Positions 115 through 45,137 of a DNA stretch of 45,137 nucleotides are shown here, piece after piece. The DNA is from Escherichia phage vB_Eco_Sem3. Positions within the stretch are counted from its first letter, which is position 1; the number at the start of each line of letters is the position of its first letter. A program made the translations under genes and the position numbers. Location of the stretch: sequence record PV775410.1; one strand, given 5' to 3'. Under the pieces are notes generated by a model. The model saw only the letters and a program-made list of their open reading frames with translations, did not search any database and had not been told where the DNA came from.

Positions 115-415
115 ATAGCCCACGCCCTCCCACCCTGTCAAACGCTCAGGAATGGCCCTGAATAGCCTCAGGAATGCACTAAGCGGCTTCACTAAGGCAA
201 TCACCTTGTCCACCACTAAGCCATCCCTAGGCCGTCCTAGGCGCTCTCCAGCGTTCCACCTTGCTAGTACATGAGCAAAGACTAGGCTGTACCAGCTAAC
301 TAGTACGGCCTGCCCTTGTGTACTACTAAGCTAGTACAAGGAGTACATCAGCCCTGCCCCGTCGAAGACGGATTTCCTCAGGCCACCCTATGGGGGCAAC
401 CCGGCGAGGGCGAGG
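115..415. repeat. Direct terminal repeat, copy A (301 bp, identical to 44829-45129)
   Basis: Read directly: agcccacgccctcccaccctg...ccggcgagggcgagg is identical at both ends of the window; contains four ACTAAG motifs. 113 bp of unique sequence lies outside it (1-114). Confidence 0.9.
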
Positions 416-468: not shown

Positions 469-843
469 TTACAGGTCTACTGGAAGCCATACCTTCTTCT
501 GCCCTTGGGTTACACTAAGAGAAGACCTATCATAGTCACGTGAATACTTGAGATTGTACTCTTCAGTACACCACTCTAAGTTGTCTACATGATTATGTGC
601 CTTGTCTTCATCCTTGTGGTTCACTAAGGGAAGATTATGAGGATTAGGCAAATGACACAGTGCAACCAAGCGATGCACACGGAATGTCTTCTTGCCTTCC
701 TCGTTACTAAGAACTACGTTCAAATACCCACTCTTTGACTTGCCCGGCTTCAGTATCTTGTGATTACCAATGAGCGATTTGACACGTCCATGAGTAGACA
801 CTTGATACCGTGGGTAGCCGGGAACAGTTACCCACGTTTCCAT
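469..843 (-). CDS. HNH homing endonuclease (124 aa)
   Basis: HNH motif ...LVNHKDEDKAHNHVDNLEW... and N-terminal YPRYQVSTHGRVKS (NUMOD-like); RBS AAGGAG upstream of ATG. Confidence 0.8.
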   Translation of the reverse strand: METWVTVPGYPRYQVSTHGRVKSLIGNHKILKPGKSKSGYLNVVLSNEEGKKTFRVHRLVALCHLPNPHNLPLVNHKDEDKAHNHVDNLEWCTEEYNLKYSRDYDRSSLSVTQGQKKVWLPVDL

Positions 844-1008: not shown

Positions 1009-2721
1009 CTACTTTGCAACCCAACCTTGAGCAGATGTACCAGATTCTTTAACGTACAATGTACTACCACCAGAACCATTGATATCAGTTGCTAAAGAGC
1101 CTACAGGTGCACCTACGCCTAAAGTTGTAGGGTTGCCATTTAGTCCATAAACAATCACCGTACTAGAACCAACTCCTTGGTTATTCTGAGGCGCCTGTGT
1201 GCCATAGCAATCATTGCCAATGAGTTTAATATTGGAACAAGAAGAAGTAACACGAATACCAAGGCTTGGCTTGTTAGGGCTTTCTCCGTCTACTCCAATA
1301 TTACCTTCTACTAGGATGTTGTTAGCCCCTGTGTCTATACTAATGAAGTGCCTACCTGCTTCAGCTGTAGATACTTCCTTCATATTATTGGCTTTAATCA
1401 CTAGACCGCTAGCCTTGCAGTTTACATGAATACCATATTGCCCTAATTTAGAGAAGATATTACGACTAAGTATACCTCCTCCTGATAAACCAGTACCAAT
1501 GAATGTAGTAGCATCAGACTCACCTAACCAAATCCCACTACCTCTACCGTTTTCCCAAGTATTACCTTCGATGTGGTATTTTGTCCCAAAGCGTAAACCG
1601 ATTAACCCTAAGCCACCAGAGCCTGTATTACCTTTTACAATTAAATTCTTACACCACCTTGCATCTACACCATAGGATACATCCTCTGTGAGGATCATAG
1701 TATTATTAGAAATTTCAATATGGTCATGCCAAATGTCACTAATATCAGTAAAAGGCCAAGATGGTGCAGCAATTAGAACTGGTGTCCTTACGCCATCAAA
1801 AGTGCAATCTACAATACTACCTTGTCGAGTACCCTGCGGTTTAGTCTGAGATGAGACAGGTGTAACATGGACACCTCTTGCATTAGAGTTCCTAAATGTG
1901 CAACCACGCACTGTCCAGTTTTTCCAGTTAAATACACGGACACCTGCAAAGAGAGCACCATCTGTAGTGCAATTCAAGATACGGATATTGTTGTCCTGTA
2001 CACCGTAAGCTGAGGCGTGATTTCCAATCAGTGCACCATAACCTCCAAACCCTGATTCTGTGTTTGGACCAGCATAGCAATTCTCCACCAGCATACCACT
2101 TGACTGTACATAGTGACCAACTGTAATAAGACCTGGGTCTAACTGTATAGCCTCTGAGAAGTTACGACTGCCTGTATTCTTAAAACCTAGGAATTTGCAA
2201 TCACGAATAACTACGTTGTTCCAATCTGCTAAATCTATGGCGTGGTAGTCCACTACATTGTTAACTGTTATGCCTTCAAACTTCAAATCATTATTACTAG
2301 TAGATGCAAATACTACAAAAGGTGTATCTCCCTTAGTGTGACCATTGCCTTCATAGATACCTCCACTGACTGTTACATTACTAGCTTGCCCTTGTGATAA
2401 TCTGAATAACGTATCTCCTGTTTCGTAGTCACGTACAAATGTTACACCTTTAGCAACCTTGAAGTGTGTATTAGCAAATATCTCAACAGTACCACTGAGT
2501 TTGTATTTTCCAGCTTTAGTGACTAATACAGTGCCACCGCCTAACACTCTGACTGCATTGAACGCAGCTTGAAGTGCTTGCCTGTTGTCATTGGAAGATG
2601 GAGTAACTCCAAAATCCGCAACATCTATTGTATCCGATAGTTTATCAGATAGCAGGCGCTCAATAGTACCTGTTAGTTTACTCTTGTACTTCACCAAGTA
2701 AGCACTTAATCTTTGAAGCAT
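1009..2721 (-). CDS. Tailspike protein 2, putative capsule/polysaccharide depolymerase (right-handed beta-helix)
   Basis: 570 aa; repetitive Gly/Asn/Thr/Val-rich beta-helix-like sequence (…NNVVDYHAIDLADWNNVVIRDCKF…); short N-terminal anchor region; RBS GAGGAGG; position matches the second tailspike of SP6/K1-5-type phages. Confidence 0.7.
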   Translation of the reverse strand: MLQRLSAYLVKYKSKLTGTIERLLSDKLSDTIDVADFGVTPSSNDNRQALQAAFNAVRVLGGGTVLVTKAGKYKLSGTVEIFANTHFKVAKGVTFVRDYETGDTLFRLSQGQASNVTVSGGIYEGNGHTKGDTPFVVFASTSNNDLKFEGITVNNVVDYHAIDLADWNNVVIRDCKFLGFKNTGSRNFSEAIQLDPGLITVGHYVQSSGMLVENCYAGPNTESGFGGYGALIGNHASAYGVQDNNIRILNCTTDGALFAGVRVFNWKNWTVRGCTFRNSNARGVHVTPVSSQTKPQGTRQGSIVDCTFDGVRTPVLIAAPSWPFTDISDIWHDHIEISNNTMILTEDVSYGVDARWCKNLIVKGNTGSGGLGLIGLRFGTKYHIEGNTWENGRGSGIWLGESDATTFIGTGLSGGGILSRNIFSKLGQYGIHVNCKASGLVIKANNMKEVSTAEAGRHFISIDTGANNILVEGNIGVDGESPNKPSLGIRVTSSCSNIKLIGNDCYGTQAPQNNQGVGSSTVIVYGLNGNPTTLGVGAPVGSLATDINGSGGSTLYVKESGTSAQGWVAK

Positions 2722-2806
2722 GTAACCTCCTCTTCTGAAAGGCTACCACCATGATAACCTTTAAGAAAAGTTGCGTGAAAAGCAGTGCTTACGCACTGCC
2801 TGTCTC

Positions 2807-4705
2807 TCACTTAGGCAGGGAAGCTAGTGCTTCCTGCATACGCTTGATAGTCCTACGCATCAACGCAGCCTCTAATATCAGTACTTCCTCGTAACGAATA
2901 CCGTAGCGGGAACCTGCTGGTGTAATCAGTTTACGAGAGCCATTGGCATCTTCCTCGTATACATCATCCCAACTGTCGAAGCACAAGAAGCCATAGCGGT
3001 GTGCATCTATGCCGTGACGTTCGAAAGCCTCCTTAGCTCGCTGAGCGATGATACCGAAGTGCCATCTAGCTGAGTCTGCACCCTTCTCCTCAACACGATC
3101 CAAATACTGAAACTGCACAAAGTCAACTTCAGACCAAGCATCCAGTAAGGCATCTGATATAGTAAGAGGTTCTGTTTTACACCGAGCATCTGAGGTGACA
3201 GTGAATGCTGCTTGAGTAAAACCGCCAGACCATGCCCGACTGGCGGAACCTAATGCATATGTACCAGTACTATCTGGGGTCATTGCATCAGCACCTAACT
3301 GCAAAAAGCCTGTGCTACTGGTAGAAAGACGCACGTTACCGTTGGTGAGGGACACTGTCCGAGAAGTACCATCAGAAGTAAATAGGCGAACTTGAGAAGA
3401 AGTGCCCCCACCTACAGCTAATGACACAGCACCATCTCCAAGCATTCTGTACTTATCAGCAGAAGTAAGAACACCTGAAGGGAGTGACATGGACTTAATC
3501 CGCCATTCGAACCTACCTGACATACTACCTATGTACTGCCCTAAGGCAGGTGCGTGCACTACGTTACTATTATTAGTGCCGTCAATAGTAGCTGCACCGT
3601 CAATAGTACTAGCAGAACTGAGAATGTCGTTTCTCCTGCCAGGGTGCTTTACCTCTACGAAGTTACGGGTAGAGCCGGATTCGAAAGTAATAACACCTGT
3701 AGCACTGTAGCTAGGAAATACAGACGCATAGTTGTTATTAGCTGTACCTATAAAGCGTGCAATTGTAGCAGTCTGCCCTTGTCCTAAAGAGTTAGTACCA
3801 TCACATCCTGACATAAGCACATTATTTATGACGTTATCAGATCCCTCTACGGTAACACCATGAGCCTGCCTAGCATCAGAAGTTGAGTAATCTACGAGCA
3901 CGTCTGATATTAAGTTCGTACTTCCTTTGCCTGCAACAACCGCTGCATACTTAGGGTTATTAGCCATCACCCCACTGATAAGGTTATTAGAAGGAGCTAT
4001 TGGCCCTTCAGTGCCGTTGTAAGTTACATGCTGGCAATCTGCCCCTATAACATTACTGACTATGTTGTAACTGGCTGTACCTTTCAACTCTACTGCTCCG
4101 AACTGAGGGTAGTTCTTAGCAATGACGTTATCTATGAGGGAGTTAACTGAGGAGTCAGCAAGTACGCATCCGGCTGCCTTATTAGTAGCATAGCCTGAAT
4201 AGCTACCTCGAATACCTTTAATCATAAGCCCCTCAGGTGGCGCATCATTAGGGTATGCGATTAAACTGAAACCAGTACCTTTAACGTTTGAGAAGTTAAC
4301 GTCACTTACAGTAACATCACTTCCACCAGCAAGAGATACCTGCTGTCCCTGAGTTGTATCAGTCGCCTTATTACTTTCTACCGTAATATTACTTAAGCGA
4401 CCTGCACGTAGATTGTTAAATACTAAGTAGTTACCTGTACTGGAACGGTGACTTAGCACGCCACTACCCCTACCGTCTAAGTTACAGTAATTACTATTAA
4501 TACCAGAGCTAGAGAATACACCATCTGAGACTGTGACAGCTTTCTGAGAGTTTAATGAAGCAGCTATAACCTCCGTATCATCAGTAGTGGCGTCACCTGC
4601 AGCACCAAACGGCTTTGATGTTAAAACTCTCGCATCAAGGTACTCATACAAAGATTGTCCTTTATGCAAGATTCCTTCAGTATTAGGTTTGGTTAATTTA
4701 GCCAT
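2807..4705 (-). CDS. Tailspike protein 1 with C-terminal intramolecular chaperone (peptidase S74-type autoprocessing) domain
   Basis: Start at MAKLTKP (RBS GGAG; track ORF extends 20 codons further upstream). Beta-helix-like body; C-terminus …SDARCKTEPLTISDALLDAWSEVDFVQFQYLDR…FGIIAQRAKEAFERHGID…GFLCFDSWDD resembles the autocleaving chaperone domain of endosialidase-type tailspikes. Confidence 0.8.
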   Translation of the reverse strand: MAKLTKPNTEGILHKGQSLYEYLDARVLTSKPFGAAGDATTDDTEVIAASLNSQKAVTVSDGVFSSSGINSNYCNLDGRGSGVLSHRSSTGNYLVFNNLRAGRLSNITVESNKATDTTQGQQVSLAGGSDVTVSDVNFSNVKGTGFSLIAYPNDAPPEGLMIKGIRGSYSGYATNKAAGCVLADSSVNSLIDNVIAKNYPQFGAVELKGTASYNIVSNVIGADCQHVTYNGTEGPIAPSNNLISGVMANNPKYAAVVAGKGSTNLISDVLVDYSTSDARQAHGVTVEGSDNVINNVLMSGCDGTNSLGQGQTATIARFIGTANNNYASVFPSYSATGVITFESGSTRNFVEVKHPGRRNDILSSASTIDGAATIDGTNNSNVVHAPALGQYIGSMSGRFEWRIKSMSLPSGVLTSADKYRMLGDGAVSLAVGGGTSSQVRLFTSDGTSRTVSLTNGNVRLSTSSTGFLQLGADAMTPDSTGTYALGSASRAWSGGFTQAAFTVTSDARCKTEPLTISDALLDAWSEVDFVQFQYLDRVEEKGADSARWHFGIIAQRAKEAFERHGIDAHRYGFLCFDSWDDVYEEDANGSRKLITPAGSRYGIRYEEVLILEAALMRRTIKRMQEALASLPK

Positions 4706-4784: not shown

Positions 4785-4807
4785 CTCTTCTATAGTGTCC
4801 AGTAAAT
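4785..4807 (-). promoter_or_regulatory. Phage RNAP promoter (late class, CCAGT variant) upstream of tailspike 1
   Basis: Minus strand reads ATTTACTGGACACTATAGAAGAG, close to the SP6 promoter ATTTAGGTGACACTATAGAAG. Confidence 0.7.
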
Positions 4808-6316: not shown

Positions 6317-6453
6317 TGTCTCTCTCCTATTATGTAAATATAGTAAGGTAGTAAGGAATAGGGTGTACAGGAGTACACCCATACTAAGGCATACCTATAT
6401 AACCTAGGTTAACCTATATATTACCTATTATTTTCTCTTATTATCTGGGCCTT

Positions 6454-6476
6454 CCTTCTATAGTGTCCAGTAATTA
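6454..6476 (-). promoter_or_regulatory. Phage RNAP promoter (TAATTACTGG variant) overlapping the terminase large subunit stop codon
   Basis: Minus strand reads TAATTACTGGACACTATAGAAGG. Confidence 0.6.
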
Positions 6477-8858: not shown

Positions 8859-9821
8859 TTATGCTGTGATAATCTTAGCAGTCATCCGGCATTCTGGCAC
8901 TCCCTCTGAGAAAGTAACAATGTCACCGTCTACCTGATAAGCAAGTTTAGGTTGTAATAATCCATCAAGGTAGACCTCAATGTACTTAAATGCAGAGCCA
9001 ATCTGTACTACTTGTTGGCCTTCTGCTAAGTCAAAGTTCAACTCTAACTGAATATTAGGTTCAGATGTAGCCACACGACTACCAATCAGCACATACACCT
9101 CTGTACCCGCCACAAGCGGCTCTGCGAAAGTGATAGTGTTGTTGCTTATAGAGTATGCGCCTACAATTTGGTGCTGCAACACCCCATTAAGGAAAACTAG
9201 TGCATCTTGAAATTCATAAGGTGGTTTTACGGAAATCTCACCACCTTGGGCTATCGTGTACCAAGGAACAGTTCTGTGCGCAATACCAGAAGTCATACCA
9301 GCCTTAAGGCCAGCAATCTCAATGTCCTGTTTGGCGTTCCAATCTGTATGCTTCTTGTCGATGGCATCAAGCTGCCCTTTATTTACTGCATCTCCCGGAT
9401 TTGTGCCATCAGCCAAATCAGTAATCTTATTGCCGCCCCAGCTTACATCCTGTTTAATGAAGTATCCTTCTGGATAAAACCCGTCAAGTAACTCCTGTGT
9501 AATCTCCAGTATATGAATGAAAGAACCATTTAAAGACTTCATATCCAAGGTAACACCACGGTCAAACTCAGCGTATGGATACTCCTTTTGTACTTCCCTT
9601 CTAATACGGAACTTCAAACCTGCAACTGGTGCTACATCAAAAGTAATCTGGTGCGTGCCAGTTAGTTGCCAGCCAGATGTAACCTCAATCCAAGTGTTAC
9701 CTTGAAGAGACTCCACTATCACATCTGAGGCACGAAGATAACCTTTATCCCTACCAGCAAAGCTAAAGGGATAGGTTACTTGCGTACCGTTGGCTATATG
9801 TTCTGTGAAAGTATAACTCAT
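8859..9821 (-). CDS. Tail fiber / tailspike adaptor protein (T7 gp17 N-terminal domain-like)
   Basis: 320 aa; N-terminus MSYTFTEHIANGTQVTYPFSFAGRDKGYLRASDV…; too short to be a receptor-binding fibre, consistent with the adaptor that carries tailspikes in SP6/K1-5-type phages. Confidence 0.7.
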   Translation of the reverse strand: MSYTFTEHIANGTQVTYPFSFAGRDKGYLRASDVIVESLQGNTWIEVTSGWQLTGTHQITFDVAPVAGLKFRIRREVQKEYPYAEFDRGVTLDMKSLNGSFIHILEITQELLDGFYPEGYFIKQDVSWGGNKITDLADGTNPGDAVNKGQLDAIDKKHTDWNAKQDIEIAGLKAGMTSGIAHRTVPWYTIAQGGEISVKPPYEFQDALVFLNGVLQHQIVGAYSISNNTITFAEPLVAGTEVYVLIGSRVATSEPNIQLELNFDLAEGQQVVQIGSAFKYIEVYLDGLLQPKLAYQVDGDIVTFSEGVPECRMTAKIITA

Positions 9822-21307: not shown

Positions 21308-21331
21308 TCCCTTCTATAGTGTCCAGTAAAT
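21308..21331 (-). promoter_or_regulatory. Phage RNAP promoter upstream of the major capsid gene
   Basis: Minus strand reads ATTTACTGGACACTATAGAAGGGAGA. Confidence 0.75.
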
Positions 21332-29772: not shown

Positions 29773-29822
29773 ATTAAATTCTCCTTTGTTAGTTGTGGCA
29801 TTATCGCCGATTAAAATTCTTC

Positions 29823-29844
29823 TCTTCTATAGTGTCCAGTAAAT
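29823..29844 (-). promoter_or_regulatory. Phage RNAP promoter
   Basis: Minus strand reads ATTTACTGGACACTATAGAAGA. Confidence 0.7.
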
Positions 29845-30911: not shown

Positions 30912-31063
30912 TTATTTAGTCTCCTATTGTCAGTTAGCTTTGTACTGAGCACAAGCATGTACTCACTAGAAAGCCCGATACTATATCGGGTTGTGCAAGA
31001 TGCACAATGGTTCAACATCAACATCAACACTTTACAATCATAGGCCGAACTAAGCCGACCTAT

Positions 31064-31086
31064 TGTTCTATAGTGTCCAGTAATTA
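31064..31086 (-). promoter_or_regulatory. Phage RNAP promoter (TAATTACTGG variant) overlapping a stop codon
   Basis: Minus strand reads TAATTACTGGACACTATAGAACA. Confidence 0.55.
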
Positions 31087-31525: not shown

Positions 31526-31547
31526 TCCTTCTATAGTGTCCAGTAAA
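31526..31547 (-). promoter_or_regulatory. Phage RNAP promoter
   Basis: Minus strand reads ATTTACTGGACACTATAGAAGGAA. Confidence 0.7.
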
Positions 31548-31830
31548 TCATGTTAGACAAAATAAGTAGGGATAAGTTATCCATAAAGGCCACTCGTAAG
31601 TGACCTTGAGTATAACTCAGTCGTAGTTACCATCACAATCCGGGTCAATGCCAGAGAAGGCCCAGAGTACTACCATAAATAATATGATACCAAGAATAAT
31701 AAAAGCAGTTTGCATTAGTCGTAACCCTCTTCTTCATCAGGTATATCTAGTCTCATACTCCCATAACAAGCAAGCATAAGGAGTGTAAGAAAGAGAGTGA
31801 AGAATAGGCAAATAATGTCAAGCCTATCCA

Positions 31831-36292: not shown

Positions 36293-38280
36293 TAAAACTC
36301 CTGTTCATCGTCAAAAGTTGTCTCTTCTATAGTGTCCGGTAAATCCGGCACTTCTTGTTGCCTTGCTTCACCTGTATCAAATGACTTAGTACGGGCTTGT
36401 GGTTCCATTAAACGTCCGGTTTGAATGTCACCCTTAAGCATGACCTTGGTTCCAGTGTAGATACCTTGGTCGCGGTCTTTGACACATGAGATGTACGTGG
36501 TAGTCCGTTCATCAAGCGTTTCAGCTCTTGTATTACGCTCAATCCCCAAGGCGTAAGATGCCCAGAATCCGATAGCGCCTGAACCTCGGAAGTCAGAAAG
36601 GATAACCTCGCCACCTTCTTCGTGTTGGGTACGGTTTGCCGGAGGACGTGTAAGGTGTGATACAAGGAATATAGTAACCGGGTGTCGGTCTTTGATAGTA
36701 CCAATCCGCTTGACGCATTCATCAAGTGCACCAACCTTCCCACCAAAAGCACGCTCATCTAATTTAATCCCCGTTAAGTTATCAATGATGATATTAGAAA
36801 TGCCCATAGCCTCAAACTCTAGGCAAGTTTGCTCTACCTTTTCCATCGAATAGTCACCCTCTAGGTCAGCTACAAACAGCTTACCTGTATCAGCTACATA
36901 ATCAATGGCGGCGTTAGCCTCTTCCTCGGTGTAGTCGAACACCTCACGGTATCCATCTTCTTTCGGGTCGTTGGTTGGCGGTAACTCAATACGCTTATCA
37001 ATCCACTTGCCGATAAAAGCACGGGACACCTTGACCATCGGGTCTTCTGTAGAAATGATGCCTACAGATTCACCGTGTTCTTCAATGAGGTGCTTAACTA
37101 CTTCACGAAGGAACTCAGTCTTACCCACACCAGAGCCTGCGCCTACAATGATAAGTTGGTTCTTACGAATACCTAGCGTTACCTTGTTCAGCTTAGGCCA
37201 AGGCCATGATAGTCCTTGCTCTGGACGTGCAGCCTTGAGCTTATCCCTTTGAGATGCGATAGATTTAATCTGGCTACCAAAGACTTCATCAGATGACTTG
37301 GCATTAAACCATGCATCTACAAACTCTTTAGCCTTGCCAGCCATCAATGCCTTGTTAGCATCTTTGCAACCAGATGGATATTCGAGGATGTAGGATTTGC
37401 CAGGAAACAGGCGAGCAGCTTGTTGGTTCTGCTTCTGCCCCACCTCGTCGCCATCAAAGCCCCATATAATCTTCTTGAATTGGGCTATGTGCTCACGGTT
37501 TTGCACTATCTCTTCAAGGCAAGACTCACCTTTATTGACAGACCATACATGGTATGGCTGACCTTCCCACTTAGTACCTTTGGCAGAATCAAGGAGCATC
37601 TGCTGCGCTGCTAGTGCATCAAGTTCACCGCCTACAATAAGCAAGCAATCCTTTCGTCTCCCCTTGTCTAACACGTGAGACAAAGTATTCATACCGAAAA
37701 GATCTTGCATGCCAAAGAGTTTACCTAAATGACCAAACTTAAAATCTTTAGGTAATGTGCGACACTTAGCTCCTACTAGCTCACCTTTCTCGAAGCGTGG
37801 ATAGTAATGCCGCGAGACTCTACCCTCTTCATCGTGTCCGACACGTACATCATACAATGCGCAAATGTCGCCGCGAATGTGTCTGGAAACAAGGTTCTTA
37901 CGCTTAAGCGTGAGGAACCATTCAACATCAAGTTTCCACTCTGCTTCTTGGTCTGCCCTTTCTTGCTCATTCATGACCTCCCAACGGTCTTTCATACGCA
38001 TACCACCAAGAGCGATGGCGCGTAGCTTAGGGTCGCTTATCTTCCCTTCCTTCTCCATCTCTTTGAATTGAGAAGGTGTGTATTTGATATTGCCAGTAAT
38101 AGGCAACTCGGTTATCTCGATGCCTCCCTCTGGCTTATGATAGTAGGGTCTACCATTATCATGAAAGTGACCACGGTTACAATAGCCAGCACCATCATCA
38201 AATATCATGAGATGATTGCCGGATTTATCGTGCCCATTCTTCTGGCAGGCAGGGCACGGGATGTTATTAATAATAGCCAT
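36292..38280 (-). CDS. Bifunctional DNA primase/helicase (T7 gp4-like)
   Basis: N-terminal zinc ribbon (…CPACQKNGHDKSGNHLMIFDDGAGYCNRGHF…), Walker A …VGAGSGVGKTEF…, acidic C-terminus ending …DDEQEF. Confidence 0.9.
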   Translation of the reverse strand: MAIINNIPCPACQKNGHDKSGNHLMIFDDGAGYCNRGHFHDNGRPYYHKPEGGIEITELPITGNIKYTPSQFKEMEKEGKISDPKLRAIALGGMRMKDRWEVMNEQERADQEAEWKLDVEWFLTLKRKNLVSRHIRGDICALYDVRVGHDEEGRVSRHYYPRFEKGELVGAKCRTLPKDFKFGHLGKLFGMQDLFGMNTLSHVLDKGRRKDCLLIVGGELDALAAQQMLLDSAKGTKWEGQPYHVWSVNKGESCLEEIVQNREHIAQFKKIIWGFDGDEVGQKQNQQAARLFPGKSYILEYPSGCKDANKALMAGKAKEFVDAWFNAKSSDEVFGSQIKSIASQRDKLKAARPEQGLSWPWPKLNKVTLGIRKNQLIIVGAGSGVGKTEFLREVVKHLIEEHGESVGIISTEDPMVKVSRAFIGKWIDKRIELPPTNDPKEDGYREVFDYTEEEANAAIDYVADTGKLFVADLEGDYSMEKVEQTCLEFEAMGISNIIIDNLTGIKLDERAFGGKVGALDECVKRIGTIKDRHPVTIFLVSHLTRPPANRTQHEEGGEVILSDFRGSGAIGFWASYALGIERNTRAETLDERTTTYISCVKDRDQGIYTGTKVMLKGDIQTGRLMEPQARTKSFDTGEARQQEVPDLPDTIEETTFDDEQEF
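36321..36344 (-). promoter_or_regulatory. Phage RNAP promoter, CCGGT class
   Basis: Minus strand reads ATTTACCGGACACTATAGAAGAGA; embedded in the 3' end of the primase/helicase gene. Confidence 0.65.
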
Positions 38281-38841: not shown

Positions 38842-38864
38842 CTATCCTATAGTGTCCGGTAAAT
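38842..38864 (-). promoter_or_regulatory. Phage RNAP promoter, CCGGT class (first promoter after the RNAP gene)
   Basis: Minus strand reads ATTTACCGGACACTATAGGATAG. Confidence 0.65.
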
Positions 38865-44787: not shown

Positions 44788-45137
44788 ACACGTCAGGCTT
44801 GTGAGTGGAGCGCTAGCGAAACGAACAGATAGCCCACGCCCTCCCACCCTGTCAAACGCTCAGGAATGGCCCTGAATAGCCTCAGGAATGCACTAAGCGG
44901 CTTCACTAAGGCAATCACCTTGTCCACCACTAAGCCATCCCTAGGCCGTCCTAGGCGCTCTCCAGCGTTCCACCTTGCTAGTACATGAGCAAAGACTAGG
45001 CTGTACCAGCTAACTAGTACGGCCTGCCCTTGTGTACTACTAAGCTAGTACAAGGAGTACATCAGCCCTGCCCCGTCGAAGACGGATTTCCTCAGGCCAC
45101 CCTATGGGGGCAACCCGGCGAGGGCGAGGAAGCAGAG

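What the first reader, a model, noticed from the sequence alone, without database searches (positions are those of the whole stretch)
1009..4705. Two distinct tailspikes, one with an autoproteolytic C-terminal chaperone domain: predicted dual capsule or O-antigen specificity
A short adaptor (8859-9821) plus two beta-helix tailspikes is the SP6/K1-5 architecture that allows infection of hosts with two different surface polysaccharides. The first tailspike ends in an S74-like intramolecular chaperone (…SDARCK…) that is normally cleaved off after folding.
Basis: partly seen in the sequence, partly recalled or inferred. Interest (0 to 1): 0.5.

Follow-up and report, generated by a model that had tools for sequence, protein, structure and literature searches.

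The report
K1-5-type phage with two tailspikes
The region holds the two tailspike genes of a K1-5-like coliphage, a near-identical copy of the well-studied K5 capsule lyase with its self-cleaving folding domain and a second beta-helix spike of unknown sugar target, an arrangement already described for this and closely related phages.

Summary
On the minus strand, 4705..2807 encodes a 632-aa tailspike and 2721..1009 a 570-aa tailspike. The window is a Vectrevirus genome, 100% identical here to the published phages vB_Eco_Sem1, Sem2 and vB_Ka_Sem4.

- **Spike 1** is the K5 (heparosan) lyase. It is 99.2% identical to K1-5 gp46 and about 98% to crystallised KflA (PDB 2x3h). Its C-terminal Peptidase_S74 chaperone domain has Ser505 and Lys510 aligned to endosialidase Ser911 and Lys916. 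The crystallised chain ends exactly at Ser505.
- **The adaptor** (9821..8859) is 98.8% identical to K1-5 gp37.

Dual specificity was proposed for phage LL11 in 2019. The Sem-phage paper of 2026 calls both proteins depolymerases and reports haloed plaques. Only spike 2's target and chemistry remain open. A weak lead is that phage vKMB47, which carries a spike 2 homologue, plates on CFT073 (O6:K2). Interest is low.

The parts
2807..4705 (-). Tailspike 1 (gp46 equivalent), 632 aa: K5 capsule (heparosan) lyase. Beta-helix catalytic part and trimeric stalk span residues 1-505; the C-terminal intramolecular chaperone spans 506-632.
   Evidence: 99.2% identical to K1-5 gp46 'K5 lyase'. Residues 1-505 are about 98% identical to KflA, PDB 2x3h. 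Full-length match to phrog_14895, tail spike.
2807..3193 (-). Peptidase_S74 autocleaving chaperone domain of tailspike 1, starting at nucleophile Ser505 with Lys510. Predicted cleavage is between Ser505 and Asp506, releasing a 14.7-kDa fragment from a 66.7-kDa precursor.
   Evidence: PF13884 covers residues 505-565. Alignments to the GA-1 neck appendage chaperone domain (3gud, which starts at SDERHK), endoNF (3gw6, the Ser911Ala variant by my recollection, ANGERK) and T5 pb1 (4uw8) are. The 2x3h chain ends at Ser505.
1009..2721 (-). Tailspike 2 (gp47 slot), 570 aa: a short N-terminal segment shared with K1-5 gp47 (presumed adaptor-binding part, about 30 aa), then a right-handed parallel beta-helix (about residues 31-500), then a small conserved C-terminal part. 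There is no S74 domain.
2722..2806 (-). 85-nt intergenic region between the two spike genes, conserved with K1-5. It holds two strong hairpins; the first is followed by UUUU, and the second overlaps the approach to the spike 2 ribosome-binding site.
   Evidence: Same length as in K1-5 and differs from it at only a few positions. RNA fold -37 kcal/mol, z = -6.8 against shuffles. The simple terminator scan did not call it.
4785..4807 (-). SP6-type phage RNA polymerase promoter, about 80 nt upstream of tailspike 1.
   Evidence: ATTTACTGGACACTATAGAAGAG. Eight copies at 3 or fewer mismatches, all on the minus strand, with none expected by chance. The sequence is identical in K1-5 upstream of gp46.
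8859..9821 (-). Tail adaptor (gp37 equivalent), 320 aa: a T7 gp17-like N-terminal tail-binding domain plus a C-terminal part inferred to carry the two spikes.
   Evidence: 98.8% identical to K1-5 gp37. PF03906 covers residues 3-153. PDB 7y22_e 'tail adaptor protein', E=1.1e-82.

Best explanation
This is the receptor-binding module of a K1-5-like podovirus (genus Vectrevirus). A gp37-type adaptor is expected to sit on the tail and carry two different trimeric tailspikes.

Spike 1 is the K5 lyase. It binds and cleaves the K5 capsule (heparosan) by beta-elimination. Its C-terminal S74 domain should drive trimer folding and then cut itself off between Ser505 and Asp506, using the Ser505/Lys510 dyad.

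Spike 2 occupies the slot that holds the K1 endosialidase in K1-5. It entered by a cassette swap that kept the first 18 or so codons and the conserved 85-nt intergenic region. It is a beta-helix enzyme of the tailspike depolymerase type that recognises, and most likely cleaves, a second E. coli surface polysaccharide whose identity is not established. The phage is therefore expected to infect K5-encapsulated strains plus a second class of strains.

Shown here: gene limits, identities, domain content, dyad conservation, the beta-helix fold of spike 2, and the swap boundaries. Inferred: attachment to the adaptor, actual autocleavage, catalytic activity of spike 2, and its substrate.
For: - **Genome identity.** 100% identity over 11.9 kb to vB_Eco_Sem1, Sem2 and vB_Ka_Sem4, and 95.6% to K1-5 over the 79% of the query that aligns.
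- **Spike 1.** It differs from K1-5 gp46 at 5 of 632 residues and from KflA (2x3h) at about 10 of 505. The deposited chain stops at Ser505. The positions I recall as proposed catalytic residues, E206, K208 and Y229, carry those residues.
- **S74 domain.** Pfam E=1.5e-14. Ser505 and Lys510 align with the endoNF Ser911 position (Ala in 3gw6) and Lys916, and with the first residues of the GA-1 chaperone domain.
- **Adaptor.** 98.8% identical to gp37, and a match to a solved tail adaptor.
- **Spike 2.** The N-terminus MLQRLSAYLVKYKSKLTGTIERLLSDKL aligns to gp47 MIQRLGSSLVKFKSKIAGAIWRNLDDKL. DNA homology to K1-5 stops at window 2668 and resumes at 1003, just past the spike 2 stop. The model is a confident beta-helix whose neighbours include phage tailspikes and polysaccharide lyases, epimerases and hydrolases. 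Motifs H160 and E190-A-I-Q-L-D195 are conserved across all homologues aligned.
- **Distribution.** The same spike (93-100% identity) is in 21 Vectrevirus-type phage records.
- **Published observations.** The Sem phages form haloed plaques and both proteins score as depolymerases (PMC13005862). vKMB47 and vKMB14 share the K5 lyase, differ in the second spike and differ in host range (PMC11162368).
Against: No experiment on these exact proteins was available.

- Spike 2's closest structural relative, PfbA, is deposited as an adhesin, not an enzyme, so a binding-only role is not excluded.
- The Sem phages were reported to have a narrow host range, one MDR E. coli isolate and K. aerogenes ATCC 13048. 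That report does not show two separate polysaccharide receptors.
- The spike 2 model is a monomer built from only 13 sequences. Its last 70 or so residues have low confidence.
Confidence: 0.9

Rival explanations
1. Spike 2 is an O-antigen-specific endoglycosidase of the HK620/P22/CBA120 type, not a capsule depolymerase. The phage would then pair one capsule receptor (K5) with one lipopolysaccharide O-antigen receptor. This refines the main explanation and does not contradict it.
Against: The slot holds a capsule enzyme in K1-5 and K1E. From my own knowledge, the genus is classically capsule-dependent. Carriers of this spike were reported to plate mainly on phylogroup B2 uropathogenic strains, 22% of those tested; from my own knowledge such strains are usually encapsulated. 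At 48% identity, specificity need not be shared.
Confidence: 0.4
2. Spike 2 is a depolymerase for a second group 2 capsule of extraintestinal E. coli. One candidate is the glycerol-phosphate-containing K2 capsule of CFT073.
Against: This rests on a single strain comparison, and CFT073 also differs from the other strains in O antigen (O6). The vKMB47 gene is annotated in two pieces. The LL11 host is ETEC. Nothing links the Sem hosts to K2.
Confidence: 0.25
3. Spike 2 is a non-catalytic adhesin that only binds a surface glycan or protein, as its closest structural relative PfbA is described. The K5 lyase would then be the only enzyme.
Against: Conserved His, Glu and Asp motifs line up across all homologues, PfbA included, as expected of a functional cleft. 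Many other neighbours are enzymes. PhageDPO scored the protein as a depolymerase, and plaques have halos, although the halo could come from the K5 lyase alone.
Confidence: 0.1

Closest known systems
Coliphage K1-5 tail module (gp37 adaptor, gp46 K5 lyase, gp47 K1 endosialidase)
   Same: Same genus and same gene order. The adaptor is 98.8% and the K5 lyase 99.2% identical. The 85-nt intergenic region and the SP6-type promoter before the first spike are the same. The N-terminal segment of the second spike is conserved.
   Different: The second spike is not an endosialidase. From about codon 18 to the stop it is replaced by an unrelated 570-aa beta-helix protein without an S74 domain. An HNH/NUMOD4 endonuclease gene (469-843) lies downstream that K1-5 lacks.
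Phages vB_Eco_Sem1/Sem2/vB_Ka_Sem4, LL11, EC120, EEc2/EEc4, 6948/6949, vB_EcoP-101101UKE1, vB-Eco-KMB47, vB_Ec-G9
   Same: They carry the same pair of spikes. The Sem phages are 100% identical at DNA level, and the others have spike 2 at 93-99.6% identity. Dual-host use was proposed for LL11, and depolymerase prediction and halos were reported for the Sem and KMB phages.
   Different: Nothing of substance. In several GenBank records both genes are still labelled 'hypothetical protein'.
KflA, the K5 lyase of coliphage K5A (PDB 2x3h)
   Same: About 98% identical over residues 1-505, and the crystallised chain ends at the predicted cleavage serine.
   Different: About ten conservative substitutions. 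None falls at positions 206, 208 or 229.
Peptidase S74 C-terminal intramolecular chaperone domains (endosialidase endoNF, GA-1 gp12, T5 pb1)
   Same: Pfam match, position at the C-terminus after the trimeric stalk, and a Ser...Lys dyad five residues apart in register with endoNF Ser911/Lys916.
   Different: Only sequence-level evidence here. Cleavage itself was not observed.
Salmonella phage SP6 (gp37 adaptor with two tailspikes)
   Same: From my own knowledge, the same design principle: one adaptor carrying two interchangeable spikes.
   Different: Different spikes and host.

Membership tests
K1-5/SP6-type dual-tailspike adsorption apparatus | A short gp37-type adaptor with a T7 gp17-like N-terminal domain and no distal fibre | tested here: met
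   320 aa. PF03906 covers residues 3-153. 98.8% identical to K1-5 gp37. PDB 7y22_e 'tail adaptor protein', E=1e-82.
K1-5/SP6-type dual-tailspike adsorption apparatus | Two consecutive spike genes at the genome end, after the terminase and lysis genes, each with only a short N-terminal attachment segment | tested here: met
   The gene order matches K1-5. The spike 1 N-terminus is identical to gp46, and the spike 2 N-terminus aligns to gp47.
K1-5/SP6-type dual-tailspike adsorption apparatus | Both spikes physically present on each adaptor in the virion | not testable with these tools
   Needs cryo-EM or virion proteomics.
K5 (heparosan) lyase tailspike, KflA/gp46 | Sequence and fold of the single-stranded beta-helix lyase domain | tested here: met
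   About 98% identity to 2x3h over residues 1-505, and 99.2% to K1-5 gp46.
K5 (heparosan) lyase tailspike, KflA/gp46 | Proposed catalytic residues retained | tested here: inconclusive
   E206, K208 and Y229 are present. Their roles are recalled from Thompson et al. 2010, which could not be opened.
K5 (heparosan) lyase tailspike, KflA/gp46 | Beta-eliminative cleavage of K5 polysaccharide | not testable with these tools
   Needs an enzyme assay.
Peptidase S74 intramolecular chaperone (CIMCD) | Match to the family profile above the curated threshold | tested here: met
   PF13884, 54.5 bits against a cut-off of 22, E=1.5e-14, residues 505-565.
Peptidase S74 intramolecular chaperone (CIMCD) | Catalytic Ser-Lys dyad at the domain start | tested here: met
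   S505 and K510 are in register with the endoNF 911 and 916 positions and with the GA-1 start SDERHK.
Peptidase S74 intramolecular chaperone (CIMCD) | Self-cleavage after trimer folding | not testable with these tools
   Indirect only: the deposited KflA chain ends at the equivalent Ser505.
Beta-helix tailspike depolymerase (spike 2) | Right-handed parallel beta-helix fold | tested here: met
Beta-helix tailspike depolymerase (spike 2) | Identifiable catalytic residues of a known hydrolase or lyase family | tested here: inconclusive
   Conserved H160, E190, D195 and H235, but no match to a characterised enzyme family. Pfam gives only the generic Beta_helix and a sub-threshold NosD match.
Beta-helix tailspike depolymerase (spike 2) | Polysaccharide-degrading activity and defined substrate | not testable with these tools
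   No publication found that assigns a substrate.

The most novel reading that the evidence does not exclude
Spike 2 may represent an uncharacterised enzyme family shared between coliphage spikes, tailspikes of phages of Gram-positive bacteria (SPO1 gp18.3 and others) and the pneumococcal adhesin PfbA. It may act on a teichoic-acid-like capsule such as E. coli K2. Phages of this kind would then be natural K5-plus-K2 capsule specialists for uropathogenic E. coli.
Probability: 0.15. Interest if true: 0.4.

Novelty: already known. Interest (0 to 1): 0.15.

Why it matters
Correct labels for these two genes would be useful. Several database records for the same proteins still read 'hypothetical protein'. 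Host range in therapeutic Vectrevirus phages is set by exactly this swappable second-spike slot. Knowing what spike 2 cuts would help in choosing or engineering phages against uropathogenic or multidrug-resistant E. coli. As biology, this is a textbook case of tailspike cassette exchange and adds no new principle.

Tried and rejected
- **Finding spike 2's substrate in the literature.** Searches on K1-5, K5 lyase and K95, on Vectrevirus tailspikes, on the carrier phages by name, and on K2 and CFT073 depolymerases gave no assignment.
- **Papers not held.** Scholl et al. 2001 and Thompson et al. 2010 are not in the library. I therefore could not check whether spike 2 equals the uncharacterised second ORF I recall from phage K5, which I also recall grows on K95 strains. 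I also could not confirm the catalytic residues of KflA.
- **Other dead ends.** The Gaborieau et al. preprint does not name the LI10 and T147 isolation strains in its main text. The cluster look-up gave no informative name for spike 2.
- **The prophage homologue route.** lead to genomes of which three are labelled O25b:H4-ST131, but at 48% identity this does not fix spike 2's specificity.
- **Terminator scan.** The generic scan missed the intergenic hairpin, which has only four U residues after it. Folding was needed to see it.
- **A second S74 domain in spike 2.** Rejected: there is no Pfam or PDB match.
Full report
**What is there.** All long ORFs in the window lie on the minus strand. The window is a complete podovirus genome with a 300-nt repeat near both ends.

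The first 12 kb are 100% identical to Escherichia phages vB_Eco_Sem1 and vB_Eco_Sem2 and Klebsiella phage vB_Ka_Sem4. They are 96-98% identical to a set of other Vectrevirus phages, and 95.6% identical to phage K1-5 over the 79% of the query that aligns.

The finding's coordinates are exact. ATG 4705 to stop 2807 encodes 632 aa. ATG 2721 to stop 1009 encodes 570 aa. Both have good ribosome-binding sites.

**Tailspike 1.**
- It differs from K1-5 gp46, annotated as K5 lyase, at 5 of 632 positions.
- Residues 1-505 differ at about ten positions from KflA of coliphage K5A, whose crystal structure is PDB 2x3h.
- Positions 206, 208 and 229 carry Glu, Lys and Tyr. I recall these as the proposed catalytic residues from Thompson et al. 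2010, which could not be opened.
- From residue 505 onward the protein matches Pfam Peptidase_S74 (E=1.5e-14). It also matches the solved chaperone domains of GA-1 gp12 (3gud), endosialidase NF (3gw6), T5 pb1 (4uw8) and two other spikes.
- In those alignments Ser505 falls on the endoNF residue 911 position. That position reads Ala in 3gw6, which I recall is the Ser911Ala variant. Lys510 falls on Lys916. The GA-1 fragment starts at the equivalent SDERHK.
- The deposited KflA chain ends at ...FTVTS, which is Ser505. This fits cleavage between Ser505 and Asp506.
- The predicted products are 52.1 kDa and 14.7 kDa, from a 66.7-kDa precursor.

**Tailspike 2.**
- Pfam gives only the generic Beta_helix family, and PHROGs gives tail spike families.
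- The closest solved sequence is the pneumococcal surface protein PfbA (E=2.2e-9).
- An AlphaFold2 model built on 13 homologues is confident (pLDDT 83.5, pTM 0.86). It is a long right-handed beta-helix from about residue 31 to 500. The N-terminal 30 residues and the last 70 are less certain.
- His160, the Glu190-Ala-Ile-Gln-Leu-Asp195 motif and His235 are conserved in all aligned homologues. The first two are also present in PfbA. I take these as candidates for the active cleft.
- There is no S74 domain. The protein ends in a GAPVGS...LYVKESGT..GWVAK motif shared with most of its coliphage-type homologues.

**How it got there.** The first 28 or so residues align with the N-terminus of K1-5 gp47, the K1 endosialidase. 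At DNA level, homology to K1-5 runs through the adaptor, terminase, lysis genes, K5 lyase, the 85-nt intergenic region and the first 18 codons of the second spike. It stops at window position 2668 and resumes at 1003, six bases past the spike 2 stop codon.

This is a clean cassette replacement of the endosialidase body. It keeps the part expected to dock on the adaptor.

Homologues of the spike 2 body at 45-52% identity carry other anchors, namely the P22 head-binding domain and the Tail_spike_N domain. This is the usual modular pattern for tailspikes.

The K5 lyase body shows the same shuffling. From residue 31 onward it also occurs fused to a longer N-terminal region in an 843-aa spike of phages vB_EcoP-PM139, PM129 and R1, an identical-length and near-identical match to PDB 9vvr.

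**Expression signals.** A perfect SP6-type phage promoter lies at 4807..4785. It is one of eight in the window, with none expected by chance.

The 85-nt spacer between the spike genes has the same length as in K1-5 and differs from it at only a few positions. It folds into two strong hairpins (z = -6.8), and the first is followed by UUUU.

I infer a partial terminator or processing signal that tunes expression of the second spike. This was not tested.

**Adaptor.**
- It is 98.8% identical to K1-5 gp37.
- It has a T7 gp17-type N-terminal domain at residues 3-153.
- It matches a solved chain deposited as 'tail adaptor protein' (7y22_e, E=1e-82).

From my own knowledge of Leiman et al. 2007, gp37 carries both spikes in K1-5. 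That step is inferred here.

**What is already published.**
- The LL11 genome announcement notes one spike identical to the K5 lyase and a second only distantly related to the endosialidase. It proposes K1-5-like multi-host use (PMC6687929). LL11's second spike is 97.9% identical to this one.
- Markuskova et al. describe two depolymerase spikes in vKMB14 and vKMB47, the first being K5-lyase-like, and report haloed plaques (PMC11162368).
- The paper on the Sem phages, which are identical to this window, reports halos. It predicts both proteins to be depolymerases and names the Peptidase S74 and beta-helix domains (PMC13005862).

The finding is therefore correct but known.

**What remains open.** The substrate and chemistry of spike 2 are unknown. 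There are two leads, both weak.
- **CFT073.** vKMB47 carries this spike, annotated in two pieces, and plates on CFT073. vKMB14 has the same K5 lyase and a different second spike, and does not. From my own knowledge CFT073 is O6:K2:H1, so either the O6 antigen or the K2 capsule could be the target.
- **The prophage homologue.** A 48%-identical homologue sits in a P22-like prophage present in 24 complete E. coli genomes, three of them labelled O25b:H4-ST131. This shows that this beta-helix family diversifies across E. coli surface types.

The N-terminal half of spike 2 is also homologous to tailspikes of Bacillus phages such as SPO1 gp18.3. The same search matched Staphylococcus, Streptomyces and Arthrobacter phage records. 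That similarity is compatible with a teichoic-acid-like substrate such as K2, but it does not show one.

**Verdict.** Novelty is 'already known' and interest is low. The most novel reading left is that spike 2 founds an uncharacterised depolymerase family with a K2-type target, at a probability of about 0.15.

Noticed in passing
window 469-843 (-): A 124-aa NUMOD4/HNH homing-endonuclease-like gene lies just downstream of the tailspike module. The segment 462-855 has no counterpart in K1-5, so it is an insertion relative to that phage. Several relatives annotate an HNH endonuclease in the matched region.
   Followed up: partly
window 115-414 and 44829-45128: A perfect 300-nt direct repeat near both ends of the window, 44,714 nt apart. 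It is either the phage's direct terminal repeat or the overlap of a circularised assembly.
   Followed up: no
window 4785-4807, 6453-6475, 21309-21331, 29822-29844, 31063-31085, 31526-31548, 36322-36344, 38842-38864 (all -): Eight copies of an SP6-type phage RNA polymerase promoter (ATTTACTGGACACTATAGAAGAG, 3 or fewer mismatches), with none expected by chance.
   Followed up: partly
window 2722-2806 (-): The 85-nt spacer between the two spike genes is conserved with K1-5 and folds into two very stable hairpins (z = -6.8). The second pairs sequence right up to the ribosome-binding site of spike 2, which suggests control of spike 2 expression.
   Followed up: partly
PDB 9vvr_A; proteins P0034 and P0042: The K5 lyase body plus its S74 domain (from residue 31 of spike 1) also exists fused to a roughly 240-aa different N-terminal region in an 843-aa spike of phages vB_EcoP-PM139, PM129 and R1. 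A solved chain of the same length matches it closely and, as deposited, includes the chaperone domain.
   Followed up: no
L003 3001-5079: A P22-type prophage tailspike with a head-binding domain and a beta-helix 48% identical to spike 2 is present once per genome in 24 of 5,426 complete E. coli genomes. Three of them are labelled O25b:H4-ST131.
   Followed up: partly
cluster of spike 2 (P0025, P0027): Partial copies of spike 2 are filed in NCBI under Yersinia pseudotuberculosis on 8.6 and 9.1-kb contigs. They may be phage contamination of that assembly, or point to another host.
   Followed up: no
window 1-45137 (whole genome): Identical phages were isolated on an E. coli clinical isolate and on Klebsiella aerogenes ATCC 13048. 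Neither spike's known or predicted specificity explains plating on K. aerogenes.
   Followed up: no
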